DNA of 62,494 nt, the filler included, from Pirum gemmata (lineage: Eukaryota), in assembly GCA_002812295.1 (NCBI GenBank). It is 12 parts of 12 records of this genome, joined end to end, with 100 filler letters (N's around TTAATTAATTAA, not from the genome) between each part and the next. Parts side by side here need not be neighbours in the genome. Positions count along the whole stretch, not along the records: positions 1 to 4,911 come from PDIN01000797.1; 11 more parts are not named here. One strand, 5' to 3'. Positions within the stretch are counted from its first letter, which is position 1, and each line of letters begins with the position of its first letter. Shown in pieces: positions 457 through 4,911 of this stretch. The position numbers and the translations under genes are program-made. The notes under the pieces were generated by a model. The model saw nothing but the letters and a program-made list of their open reading frames with translations, was not told the DNA's origin and searched no databases.

Positions 457-2418
457 TCAAGCAGACAAACGATCCAAAGTTTTATCACGAAAATCCGCAC
501 ATAAACCAAACTTCAAAGCACGGCGGACCCCAGATTCTCTAGTCTGAGCACTAGCGAAACACATCTGCGAGCGAACAGCAGAGCGCAAAGCCGCAGACCA
601 AGGACTAGCCATACCATCCTCCAAACAACAATCAAAAGAAGAAGACTGCCGAAACTTAAACCAAAACATAAAATGGGTGGACATCTCAGTTTTAAACTTC
701 TTACCTCGACCCTTACTCAAAATTTCTATTAAACGTAGAACATAGGGGGAACCAGAATCATACCAGGGCATGTCCATCAACCATTTTGAATAAAAATTGA
801 CACCTAACATAGGAACAGCCAAGCTAGAATGATGCAAAACAGTAGGGGTTTGACCATAAGACATAGGAGTATCAAACACATAAGCATCTGTGGCAGGTCG
901 TAGCTGATCCAGATGAACCTTAATAGGCTTAACATGTACACCATCAGAACAAAGAGCATGGGTATCATTCACTAGTTCAATAGTCAAAACACTATCCTCC
1001 CAAACACTAGCCAAATCATCCCTATTGTTATCTAACAAACGCCAAACCTTATCCCCAACCTGAAACTGAAAAGGACAAGAGACAGTTTTATCATAGTTAT
1101 GCTTGCGGTGGGACGCAGCCAGAAACTGTGCCCCTACCGTTTGTCGCCGTTGGTATGGTAAAGAACTGACTACAAACGGATTATTACGTAAACGCCCCAA
1201 GAATAATAAATCAGGAATGTTTTTAATACTAGAATGAAAAGACCCATTATAAGCCTCGACTGCCTTCCGTAAATACCGAACCCAACATTGTTGTTTATTA
1301 TCATCATGCATAAAACGTCGTAAAATGTGTTGAATAGTGCCAATAACACGCTCAACCATACCATTAGCCTGATGACGTCTAGGAGTATGATGATGAACCA
1401 TAATGCCTAGACTACGTAGTTGTTGAATAGTAACATCAGCTAAGAATTCCTGACCCCCATCATTATTAAACTCAACAGGCTGACCATAATTATGAATAAA
1501 TTGAATAATGTGAGGAAATACAGTAGTAGAATTTTTGTTTTCTAAAGGTTCAGCAGCTACAAACCTGTAATAATGATCAATGATAACCAAAATATAATTA
1601 TAACCATCAACCGTTGCATTAAGTTTACATAAATCCATAGATACACGCTCTAACGGCTTGGTACACAATGGATATGAAGCTAAAGGTAGTTTAACCTTCT
1701 TAGTTGTATTAAATAAATCACAAGATTTACAACAAGACACAACATTATCAATGAAACTGTCAGAAAAACTAGACACATAGTCCATAAGACCCAACTGAAA
1801 ACGAATTTTCTTCAACTTTCCATGACCGGTGAATAAATGTATATGCATAATAAGATCTGATTTATTTAATTTGGTACCATCAGGTAAAGTGTGAAAATTT
1901 TTCTCAAAATTTTTCTCAGTAGACTGAACTTCCGCCGATCCGGAAGCCCCCCGCTCTTCTCCAATGAGAGTCAAGCTAAAATCCCCCAAAACGGGACTGA
2001 CATCTGACGTCACAAACTGCCCAGCGGCCGCCTGTATTTCGGGCCAAAATCGATAAGATGCCCTATTCCCAAAATAAGGTAACAATGTGTCCCCTTTTTC
2101 ATCATCAGGAAGCGGGCCCACAGGTAATGAGACACCTAGTTGTAACTGGACGTCCAAAGCCCAAAAAAAAATTTTAGAAGGCATAAAATGAGAACTTTGA
2201 TTTCCGGACAATTTGGAAACCAAAGTGACCGACCACCGGGGTGGTCCTAAAATTCTGTCCCCCTTATGCAGAAAAGTGTTAGTAGCTCTGGGTAGAATGA
2301 TCGGATCACAACATAACAAGGTGGTCCAAAGCCCCCACCAGCTAGCAGTAGGCTCGTAAGGGTGACAGACTATCACTGTAGCGCCAGAGTGATAAATTTT
2401 TAATAAAACTTTGTGCAA
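457..2418 (-). CDS. pol: pol part 2 (-1 frame): C-terminal half of the adenine MTase, linker, integrase, unknown C-terminal extension
   Basis: Begins LHKVLLKI..GATVIVCHPYEPTASWW (post-NPPF MTase strands). Integrase HIHLFTGH..CKSC zinc finger, RVSMDL, NNDGGQEF, ANGMVER catalytic core, FQVGDKVW GPY/F-like region. The TTG start is probably not a real start. Confidence 0.92.
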   Translation of the reverse strand: MHKVLLKIYHSGATVIVCHPYEPTASWWGLWTTLLCCDPIILPRATNTFLHKGDRILGPPRWSVTLVSKLSGNQSSHFMPSKIFFWALDVQLQLGVSLPVGPLPDDEKGDTLLPYFGNRASYRFWPEIQAAAGQFVTSDVSPVLGDFSLTLIGEERGASGSAEVQSTEKNFEKNFHTLPDGTKLNKSDLIMHIHLFTGHGKLKKIRFQLGLMDYVSSFSDSFIDNVVSCCKSCDLFNTTKKVKLPLASYPLCTKPLERVSMDLCKLNATVDGYNYILVIIDHYYRFVAAEPLENKNSTTVFPHIIQFIHNYGQPVEFNNDGGQEFLADVTIQQLRSLGIMVHHHTPRRHQANGMVERVIGTIQHILRRFMHDDNKQQCWVRYLRKAVEAYNGSFHSSIKNIPDLLFLGRLRNNPFVVSSLPYQRRQTVGAQFLAASHRKHNYDKTVSCPFQFQVGDKVWRLLDNNRDDLASVWEDSVLTIELVNDTHALCSDGVHVKPIKVHLDQLRPATDAYVFDTPMSYGQTPTVLHHSSLAVPMLGVNFYSKWLMDMPWYDSGSPYVLRLIEILSKGRGKKFKTEMSTHFMFWFKFRQSSSFDCCLEDGMASPWSAALRSAVRSQMCFASAQTRESGVRRALKFGLCADFRDKTLDRLSA

Positions 2419-2560
2419 TAAATAAAAGGTGGATTAGCCCAGCCTCTAAACATATTCCAATCTAATAAAAAAGAATTTTTCTCTTTAGTTATAAAAGTAG
2501 GCAATTGACAATTATGCTTAGCTGCAAATAAATCAACATCTAATGTACCCATTAAGTTAT
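2210..2560 (-). other. DNA N6-adenine methyltransferase domain (DIRS/phage Dam-like), split by a frameshift
   Basis: Reconstructed GTLDVDLFAAKHNCQLPTF..NSFLLDW..WANPPF/(I,Y)LLHKVLLKIYHSGATVIVCHPYEPTASWW..DPIILP. SAM-binding DLFA motif precedes catalytic NPPF at 2435-2424. Confidence 0.85.
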
Positions 2561-4859: not shown

Positions 4860-4910
4860 TCATTTCTTTTTCTTAGGGCAATCCCTTAAGAGATGATACC
4901 TGGAACTACA
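4860..4910 (-). CDS. gag: 3' end of gag (CCHC zinc knuckle), partial
   Basis: Translates CSSRYHLLRDCPKKKK*, i.e. C-x4-H-x4-C, the distal part of a CCHC knuckle. TGA at 4862-4860 is in frame with pol. Confidence 0.8.
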   Translation of the reverse strand, partial: CSSRYHLLRDCPKKKK

Positions 4911-4911
4911 T

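What the first reader, a model, noticed from the sequence alone, without database searches (positions are those of the whole stretch)
457..4911. Ty3/Gypsy LTR retrotransposon carrying a DIRS-type N6-adenine DNA methyltransferase between RNase H and a DDE integrase
Seen: after RNase H and an Asn-rich linker, pol encodes DLFAAKHN..F..NSF..DW..WANPPF, continuing in the -1 frame as LHKVLLKI..GATVIVCHP..PTASWW..DPIILP. A conventional HHCC plus DDE integrase follows. Established: this Dam-like domain downstream of RT-RH is characteristic of DIRS elements, which use a tyrosine recombinase, and is not part of the standard Ty3/Gypsy pol; cytosine MTase capture by retrotransposons is also known. Inference: this is a chimeric lineage that delivers an adenine MTase with the integrase. 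It could place 6mA on new cDNA or the insertion site, to evade silencing or mimic active chromatin. The SAM-binding and catalytic motifs both look intact. I cannot confirm that this exact architecture is undescribed.
Basis: partly seen in the sequence, partly recalled or inferred. Interest (0 to 1): 0.92.

Follow-up and report, generated by a model that had tools for sequence, protein, structure and literature searches.

The report
Gypsy retrotransposon carrying adenine methyltransferase
This is a frameshifted copy of a real, multi-copy Gypsy-type jumping gene, likely from a single-celled relative of animals, that carries a conserved adenine-methyltransferase domain between RNase H and integrase; a 2026 preprint already described this design, and the domain likely marks the element's own new copies, which is untested.

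Summary
On the minus strand lie a gag end, an in-frame UGA, protease, RT, RNase H, an Asn-rich linker, a Dam-family domain (Pfam E 2.6e-8) split by a one-base frameshift after NPPF, and an HHCC/DDE integrase. It is not a chimera or decay product. A sister copy in a public run is in one frame across the break, with 8 synonymous and 2 replacement changes in the domain (pN/pS about 0.06). An intact relative, named from Pirum gemmata, folds as an N6-adenine methyltransferase (pLDDT 93). The RT groups with Ty3/Gypsy, away from DIRS (100/98), and no tyrosine recombinase is present. It is not new: bioRxiv 10.64898/2026.05.21.726589 describes DAM-LTRs, including an ichthyosporean lineage in Pirum, Abeoforma and Sphaeroforma, with the same hypothesis. 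This scan also found the design on other DNA (12 notes, at least 3 genomes). Activity is unproven: the preprint's E. coli assay was negative, and the top fold match is the RNA enzyme PCIF1 (tied with others). One side observation: 7 of 9 LTR-type domains have a phage-like short loop that 0 of 29 DIRS-context domains have. Interest is low to moderate.

The parts
4863..4910 (-). 3' end of gag, with the last three ligands of a CCHC zinc knuckle (C-x4-H-x4-C), cut by the contig end
   Evidence: Translation. The knuckle pattern is recalled, with no Pfam test. Changes at 4866, 4869 and 4878 in diverged contigs are synonymous in this frame.
4860..4862 (-). In-frame UGA between gag and pol; candidate read-through stop
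   Evidence: Diverged contigs in X1 and X2 differ at 6 listed places in 4845-4878 and none is listed in the codon, but the table is cut. No stable downstream hairpin (z +1.69). Read-through is inferred.
4602..4778 (-). Aspartic protease (DTG at 4742-4734)
   Evidence: gag-asp_proteas E 0.023, below the cut-off; motif ALVDTGG
3450..4073 (-). Reverse transcriptase (YIDD 3626-3615), Ty3/Gypsy side of the RT tree
   Evidence: RVT_1 E 6e-26; tree with DIRS split 100/98
2808..3209 (-). Ty3/Gypsy-type RNase H
   Evidence: RT_RNaseH E 1e-18 and RT_RNaseH_2 E 6e-18; 12 synonymous and 2 replacement codons among the listed variants
2600..2800 (-). Asn-rich linker whose length differs between copies
   Evidence: A diverged contig links RNase H (2700-3041) to the DAM start (2550-2627) with other letters between.
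2424..2597 (-). DAM N-terminal half: DLFA motif (2534-2523), short phage-type loop, DW, catalytic NPPF (2435-2424)
   Evidence: Pfam Dam E 2.6e-8; HMM positions 1-65; alignments
2423..2427 (-). One-base frameshift in a short T run just after NPPF; copy-specific lesion or assembly error
   Evidence: Two other contigs of run X1 have one more base here (table 4). No stimulatory hairpin downstream (z -0.32). The window's own version is not among the contigs laid at this place.
2209..2421 (-). DAM C-terminal half (ORF2 frame): LHKVLLKI, VIVCHP, WW, DPIILP, PPRW
   Evidence: 39.8 bits against a best shuffle of 7.2; E 3.5e-18 to P0159; with the N half, 8 synonymous and 2 replacement changes over 2290-2518
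1860..2205 (-). Spacer of about 115 aa between DAM and integrase, with no known match
   Evidence: No useful Pfam hit; no hit among the fetched proteins
1720..1845 (-). Integrase HHCC zinc-binding motif
   Evidence: Motif positions; Ty3 Gag-Pol match covers it; no Pfam H2C2 hit
1351..1659 (-). DDE integrase core (D267, D325, E361; D-x35-E)
   Evidence: rve E 5e-11; foamy virus integrase E 2e-9; spacing
457..1100 (-). Integrase C-terminal region and a tail of about 145 aa with no known family; no chromodomain or tyrosine recombinase found; stop at 459-457
   Evidence: No Pfam hit at E up to 10 except a weak chance row; own chromodomain and YR HMMs negative; Atlas best score 0.80, a lead only
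1..37 (-). Possible start of the 3' LTR (TGTCACA after GGGCG), cut by the contig end
   Evidence: Sequence; summed contig depth over 1-164 is the highest of the 30 bins in X1. A hint only: no second LTR is in the window.

Best explanation
The contig is a frameshifted copy of a multi-copy Ty3/Gypsy LTR retrotransposon, likely of the ichthyosporean Pirum gemmata or a close relative, whose pol carries a conserved DIRS-family N6-adenine methyltransferase domain between RNase H and integrase (a DAM-LTR), and in intact copies this domain likely methylates adenines on the element's own newly reverse-transcribed DNA. Shown: the domain order; an RT outside DIRS; no tyrosine recombinase; a sister copy in one frame across the break; purifying selection; intact DLFA and NPPF motifs; a methyltransferase fold for the intact relative P0159. 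Inferred: pol is made by read-through of the gag UGA; the domain is packed into the particle with RT and integrase; it acts on the RNA-DNA hybrid or nascent cDNA, since the 132-aa domain has no separate target-recognition domain; host AMT1 then maintains the 6mA so the new insertion stays transcribed (the preprint's model). This copy, as assembled, would stop at 2400 and could move only with proteins from intact copies. My odds: DAM-LTR identity about 0.93; domain catalytically active in the family about 0.7; own cDNA or hybrid as the main substrate about 0.45.
For: Architecture. RT tree of 47 rows, DIRS side 100/98. A YR HMM finds nothing in six frames of the contig (best E 6) but hits 15 of 21 control loci. 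Run X1 covers 30 of 30 bins with several diverged copies. Record 1 spans 2180-2518 with one extra base at the break and 10 synonymous and 5 replacement codon changes (pN/pS 0.14, P 2e-4); over 2290-2518 it has 8 and 2 (0.06, P 9e-5). P0159 (named Pirum gemmata) has RNase H, linker and whole DAM in one frame; P0157 (88% identical) is also named P. gemmata; P0180 (50%) is named Abeoforma whisleri. The window and P0159 DAMs pair at 100/99, and all 27 retroelement DAMs form one side against 13 phage Dams, 99/98. P0201, P0203, P0228 and P0262 carry RT-RNase H-DAM-integrase in single ORFs. The P0159 DAM model has pLDDT 92.6 and its best fold matches are amino-methyltransferases. The preprint (whole main text) reports more 6mA and expression on DAM-LTR copies than on other LTRs in A. 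whisleri and S. arctica.
Against: No methylation has been shown for any eukaryotic DAM: the preprint's E. coli expression test was negative. Iyer et al. (PMC4738411, passages) place the DIRS domain in the PCIF1 clade and call DIRS copies likely inactive. The top fold match is PCIF1 (Foldseek TMq 0.63-0.67 against 0.34-0.37 for E. coli Dam, none at E up to 0.001; VIA Z 9.9, tied with DIMT1 9.4 and KsgA 9.1, then T4Dam 8.6), which fits an RNA substrate as well. The 6mA enrichment is a correlation, measured in other species, and is at ApT, the host AMT1 context. The selection estimate rests on one pair of copies and 15 changes. One other contig that adds a base at the break also has a 4-base insertion at 2445 and a loose end at 2326, so it looks decayed. 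No laid contig spans the whole element, and the window's own allele at the break was not seen in the run.
Confidence: 0.5

Rival explanations
1. The domain is an RNA methyltransferase, like PCIF1/CAPAM, that puts m6A or m6Am on the element's genomic RNA (or its primer) to stabilise, translate or package it; the 6mA on integrated copies is the work of host AMT1 alone.
For: PCIF1 is the top fold match in both searches, and rRNA m6A enzymes fill the next ranks. P0228 has a weak PCIF1_WW hit over its DAM (E 0.004). Iyer et al. put the DIRS domain in the PCIF1 clade. The dsDNA assay in E. coli was negative. There is no target-recognition domain.
Against: In sequence the domain is closest to phage DNA methyltransferases (Pfam Dam; phrog_111 in 7 of 8 alignment members), and PCIF1 is only at E 0.8-1.3 with a 22-row profile. 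The Z scores of the top three rows are tied, and T4Dam is 1.3 lower. A shared fold shows no substrate.
Confidence: 0.22
2. The domain is kept as a non-catalytic nucleic-acid or SAM-binding module, or a structural spacer, in the polyprotein.
For: Negative E. coli assay. Iyer et al. regard DIRS copies as likely inactive. P0217 has FPPT and P0228 has HPPF in place of NPP[FW]. Earlier scan notes report lost catalytic motifs in other DAM-LTRs (unchecked).
Against: NPPF and DLFA are intact in the window, unchanged in the sister copy and present as ELFA/NPPF in P0159 at 45-46% identity. NPP is nearly invariant in the 22-row alignment.
Confidence: 0.17
3. The domain travels with integrase and methylates host DNA around the insertion site rather than the element's cDNA.
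For: It lies directly upstream of integrase here and in P0201, P0203, P0228 and P0262, and after integrase in L015.
Against: Protease cleavage sites are unknown. In DIRS the same domain is fused to RT-RNase H and has no DDE integrase (PMC3783388, passages). The preprint measured 6mA within insertions, not on flanks.
Confidence: 0.08
4. The arrangement is an assembly chimera or a nested DIRS fragment inside a Gypsy element.
For: The assembly is fragmented into pieces of about 5 kb; no laid contig spans the element; the frameshift sits inside the domain; record 1 has no change in 2417-2518 but 15 in 2180-2416.
Against: An independent Pirum family has the same RNase H-DAM fusion in one frame (P0159). 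A diverged contig links RNase H to the DAM start. A contig identical to the window spans 2549-2832. No DIRS recombinase is present. Four unrelated single-ORF elements share the order.
Confidence: 0.03

Closest known systems
Ichthyosporean DAM-LTR lineage (Fernandez-Moreno et al., bioRxiv 10.64898/2026.05.21.726589; whole main text read; figures and supplements not held)
   Same: Ty3/Gypsy RT and DDE integrase with a DAM domain, no chromodomain, NPP catalytic triplet. The named hosts include Pirum gemmata and Abeoforma whisleri, the sources of this element's closest relatives.
   Different: The main text does not give the DAM position for this lineage, nor mention a gag-pol UGA or the short loop. 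Whether this exact sequence is in their set could not be checked.
Chloro-Ochrophyta DAM-LTR clade (same preprint)
   Same: DAM flanked by RT and integrase, the same order as here.
   Different: Algal hosts; treated there as an independent capture.
DIRS tyrosine-recombinase retrotransposons (PMC3783388, passages)
   Same: DAM (PF05869) right after RT-RNase H; one clade with this domain against phage Dams.
   Different: DIRS have a tyrosine recombinase and lack protease and DDE integrase, and their RT is a separate clade. 29 of 29 measurable DIRS-context domains have a loop 6-10 residues longer than the window's.
Phage Dam-like N6-adenine methyltransferases (PF05869, phrog_111)
   Same: DLFA or DPCA motif, short loop, DW, NPPY/F.
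   Different: Stand-alone phage genes on a separate branch (99/98), with weak tblastn similarity (22-34% in the 20 of 132 records listed).
PCIF1/CAPAM cap-specific adenosine methyltransferase
   Same: Top structural match of the P0159 DAM model (Z 9.9, rmsd 2.8 over 126 residues).
   Different: 14-17% identity; PCIF1 is a large cellular RNA enzyme with WW and helical domains.
KnitGypsy-Dnmt3 and SymbioDIRS-Dnmt3 (PMC5890265, passages)
   Same: A methyltransferase carried inside retrotransposon pol under purifying selection.
   Different: C5-cytosine enzymes, unrelated in sequence.

Membership tests
Ty3/Gypsy LTR retrotransposon | pol order protease-RT-RNase H-integrase | tested here: met
   (the protease Pfam hit is weak, E 0.023; DTG motif present)
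Ty3/Gypsy LTR retrotransposon | RT groups with Ty3/Gypsy, not DIRS | tested here: met
   37 LTR rows against 10 DIRS-context rows, 100/98; the place within Gypsy is unresolved
Ty3/Gypsy LTR retrotransposon | HHCC plus DDE integrase with D-x35-E | tested here: met
Ty3/Gypsy LTR retrotransposon | Direct LTRs, primer-binding site, polypurine tract, target-site duplication | tested here: inconclusive
   The contig ends inside gag and at a possible LTR start (1-37); no whole genome is held
DAM-LTR (preprint 2026) | PF05869 DAM domain in a non-DIRS LTR pol | tested here: met
DAM-LTR (preprint 2026) | DAM within the eukaryotic retroelement DAM clade | tested here: met
   27 retroelement rows against 13 phage rows, 99/98; the phage sample is narrow
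DAM-LTR (preprint 2026) | Conserved NPP catalytic triplet | tested here: met
   NPPF at 2435-2424, unchanged in the sister copy
Ichthyosporean DAM-LTR lineage | Ichthyosporean host and DAM clustering with Pirum, Abeoforma or Sphaeroforma elements | tested here: met
   P0157 (88%) and P0159 are named Pirum gemmata; the window and P0159 DAMs pair at 100/99.
Ichthyosporean DAM-LTR lineage | No chromodomain | tested here: met
   No Pfam Chromo hit; own 7-row chromodomain HMM negative on six frames
DAM-LTR (preprint 2026) | Raised 6mA and transcription of copies; host encodes AMT1 | not testable with these tools
   No genome held and no modified-base data
DIRS retrotransposon | Tyrosine recombinase present; protease and DDE integrase absent | tested here: not met
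   No YR; protease motif and rve present
Active DNA N6-adenine methyltransferase | SAM-dependent methyl transfer to DNA adenine | not testable with these tools
   Motifs and fold are compatible; the published heterologous test on relatives was negative

The most novel reading that the evidence does not exclude
The RNase H-DAM-integrase Gypsy domains are not repeated captures from DIRS but a separate, phage-like short-loop module that moves between Gypsy lineages and may be nearer the ancestral state than DIRS. It works as a minimal PCIF1-like writer of N6-methyladenine on the element's own RNA or RNA-DNA hybrid inside the particle, which would explain the failed dsDNA assay. Basis: short loop in 7 of 9 LTR-type domains and 13 of 13 aligned phage Dams but 0 of 29 DIRS-context domains; AU tests reject neither grouping (p 0.37-0.45); the RTs of 5 DAM-LTRs need at least 3 separate placements.
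Probability: 0.15. Interest if true: 0.6.

Novelty: already known. Interest (0 to 1): 0.27.

Why it matters
If the domain is active, a retrotransposon writes an 'active chromatin' mark on its own offspring, turning the usual silencing logic round. That idea and this element class are already in a 2026 preprint, so the finding is confirmation. What this analysis adds is modest: a direct measure of purifying selection on the domain in this family, an intact natural relative with a confident model to use in assays, a pointer to RNA or hybrid substrates, and a loop difference that questions the one-way DIRS-to-LTR history.

Tried and rejected
No whole genome is held, so copy number, LTRs and AMT1 could not be searched. 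No RNA holder was listed; this says nothing about expression. Programmed -1 frameshifting at the break was rejected as unlikely: by eye there is no canonical slippery heptamer, there is no downstream hairpin, and sister copies have the extra base. Two word-based protein searches returned 38 and 118 proteins, and none but the window's own carried Pfam Dam. A third, with the P0159 DAM region against longer proteins, found none. The relatives came from the HMMER search (best 150 of 11,670 shown). Scans for close loci found no relative in viral contigs or prokaryote genomes. PDB sequence searches with the DAM gave nothing significant. DAM trees did not resolve the direction of transfer: one clade of LTR DAMs p-AU 0.37; with the loop columns dropped, long-loop clade p 0.44 and short-loop clade p 0.45. 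One search printed a wrong 9:1 count for the core, corrected to 8:2. In one search the window row was read in the wrong frame and P0201 was anchored on an earlier motif; their loop state comes from the alignment. The ORF2 tail was tested as a chromodomain or recombinase remnant and was negative. No other part of the window resembles contig 1. A search of earlier scan notes by sequence found nothing.
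Full report
Setting. The window is a string of pieces of about 5 kb joined by N-TTAATTAATTAA-N spacers, AT-rich and eukaryotic. The finding fills the first piece (1-4911), so its neighbours in the window need not be genomic neighbours. No whole genome is held.

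Observation. On the minus strand ORF1 (2403-4859, 819 aa) has a DTG protease motif, RVT_1, two RNase H models and Pfam Dam at its end. ORF2 (460-2433, 658 aa, -1 frame) has the rest of the DAM, an HHCC motif and an rve core with D-x35-E. The ORF2 start is the second half of the same domain: an HMM built from 28 DIRS-context DAMs, with no window or Pirum rows, places the two halves at positions 1-65 and 67-135 of 139, at 41.7 and 39.8 bits. The best of 500 shuffles of the C half scored 7.2. Upstream of ORF1, in the same frame, are the end of a gag zinc knuckle and a TGA. A gag stop thought to be suppressed is described for the Ty3-type element Tj1 (PMC5911963, passage). Read-through here is an inference, and no downstream structure stands out.

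Is it real? Four runs were listed; one holds 0.61 of the sampled words. Its contigs cover 30 of 30 bins with several diverged copies, though none spans the element. Three contigs cross the break. Record 1 (340 letters on 2180-2518, 15 substitutions, one gap) has one more base at the break, which keeps ORF1 and ORF2 in one frame. Record 3 also has one more base but carries other insertions and a loose end. Record 2 ends at 2429. The window's own allele was not among the contigs laid there, so the lesion may be a mutation of this copy or an assembly error. Record 1's changes are 10 synonymous and 5 replacement (pN/pS 0.14, binomial P 2e-4); over 2290-2518 they are 8 and 2 (0.06, P 9e-5). This is one pair of copies. 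For record 2 only 16 of 27 changes were listed, and these gave 9 synonymous and 5 replacement codons.

Relatives and host. A HMMER search with RNase H plus the DAM N half (best 150 of 11,670 listed) gave P0157 (88%), P0180 (50%) and P0159 (47%). Their sources name Pirum gemmata, Abeoforma whisleri and P. gemmata. P0159 has RNase H, linker and a whole DAM in one frame. The host is therefore most likely P. gemmata or a close ichthyosporean; an earlier scan note on this genome also suggested a single-celled relative of animals. Of 305 other proteins fetched by then, 6 matched the DAM at E below 1e-5. Four of these (P0201, P0203, P0228, P0262) are single ORFs with RT-RNase H-DAM-integrase, and two of the four end in a chromodomain.

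Gypsy or DIRS? A metagenome scan gave 41 DAM loci. Of the 38 scanned with Pfam (78 ORFs; L023, L030 and L033 left out as near-copies), 6 had a tyrosine recombinase and one (L015) an rve integrase before the DAM. An HMM from those 6 recombinases hit 15 of 21 further loci and nothing in the six frames of contig 1. In an RT tree of 47 rows (10 DIRS-context, 8 of them with YR evidence; L035 dropped for a poor match; 37 LTR rows including the window, picked mainly from 183 eligible proteins), DIRS and LTR sides separate at 100/98 and the window is on the LTR side. The five DAM-LTR RTs are scattered, with at least 3 placements forced by well-supported branches (the bootstrap had not fully settled). 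In DAM trees the window pairs with P0159 (100/99), and all 27 retroelement DAMs stand against 13 phage Dams (99/98). Deeper order is unresolved.

Fold. The P0159 DAM (132 aa, 8-row alignment) models at pLDDT 92.6. Foldseek gives no match at E up to 0.001; its best rows are PCIF1/CAPAM (TMq 0.63-0.67), then E. coli Dam (0.34) and KsgA. VIA-align gives PCIF1 Z 9.9, DIMT1 9.4, KsgA 9.1, ErmC' 8.9 and T4Dam 8.6. It is an amino-methyltransferase fold, and the substrate is not shown. The window's own domain was not folded whole.

A loop difference. Between the DLFA and NPP motifs the window, P0159, P0201, P0217, P0228, P0262 and L025 have 28-29 residues, with the same gap as 13 of 13 phage Dams in the alignment. 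P0203, L015 and 29 of 29 measurable DIRS-context domains (of 39 loci) have 35-39. Caveats: the LTR rows were found with a short-loop query, many DIRS and phage rows are kin, L025 is classed as LTR only by its RNase H, and trees without the loop columns neither support nor reject a short-loop clade.

What is known. bioRxiv 10.64898/2026.05.21.726589 (whole main text read; figures not held, supplements closed) defines DAM-LTRs in five lineages. One is an ichthyosporean lineage in P. gemmata, A. whisleri and S. arctica without chromodomain, and another is an algal clade with DAM between RT and integrase. It reports more 6mA and expression on DAM-LTR copies, a negative E. coli assay, and the model of methylation on RNA-DNA intermediates maintained by AMT1. 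The main text has no statement on the DAM position in the ichthyosporean lineage, and a search for PCIF1, DIRS and methyltransferase together did not list it. The DIRS architecture is from PMC3783388 (passages); the PCIF1 link and the 'likely inactive' view are from PMC4738411 (passages); cytosine enzyme capture is from PMC5890265 (passages); ichthyosporean 6mA is from PMC12695648 (passages, which do not mention Pirum). Six literature searches were answered. I did not find the short-loop observation in the texts read, but the unseen supplements may hold it. Earlier scan notes hold the same design 12 times in at least 3 genomes (unchecked).

Verdict. A correct observation of a real, selected architecture that is already described, most likely in this very host lineage. 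The likeliest function is self-methylation of new cDNA or hybrid (about 0.45), ahead of RNA methylation (0.22), a non-catalytic role (0.17), target-site methylation (0.08) and artefact (0.03). Interest 0.27.

Noticed in passing
window 4860-4910 (-): The gag zinc-knuckle end and pol are in one frame, separated by a UGA followed by CUU. Diverged contigs change nearby bases but no change in the stop is listed, so this is a candidate read-through signal.
   Followed up: partly
window 379-470 (-): A short tandem duplication at the ORF2 stop is followed by an A run of about 35 bases and a U-rich stretch before the possible LTR start.
   Followed up: no
window 460-895 and 1860-2205 (-): Two ORF2 stretches (about 145 and 115 aa) have no family match; the tail has the lowest contig depth in run X1.
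   Followed up: partly
window, whole: Eleven N-TTAATTAATTAA-N spacers join 12 pieces of about 5 kb; adjacency across spacers is artificial.
   Followed up: yes
window 10407, 11289, 31645, 32953, 40428, 46818, 62001: A dispersed repeat of about 110-185 nt occurs in both orientations at 67-95% likeness, possibly a MITE or SINE.
   Followed up: no
window 32150-32200, 39927-40022, 53520-53570, 57550-58420: Telomere-like (TTAGGG)n arrays and degenerate versions; also (AGCATA)n at 5012-5147.
   Followed up: no
window 35233-37068 (+), 49555-51234 (-), 42588-42947 (+), 6762-7004 (-): Host genes: a thrombospondin-repeat membrane protein, a TNFR cysteine-rich membrane protein, a Sel1-repeat protein and a GST-like fragment.
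   Followed up: no
window 43964-44419 (-): A weak Pfam GFP hit (E 3e-4, below the cut-off) in a low-complexity frame, probably chance.
   Followed up: no
L015:1-2685: An LTR element with the DAM after integrase and SH3, with the long DIRS-type loop: a different arrangement.
   Followed up: partly
L036:1194-5016 and L038:296-1474: DAM-bearing loci with an ALOG-domain ORF downstream; L036 has an RNase-H-like hit before its RT.
   Followed up: no
P0019, P0023, P0010: Gypsy polyproteins with a PHD finger. P0019 and P0023 carry PF00145 (C5 methyltransferase), and P0010 has a weak DAM-like NPPW stretch before its RT.
   Followed up: no
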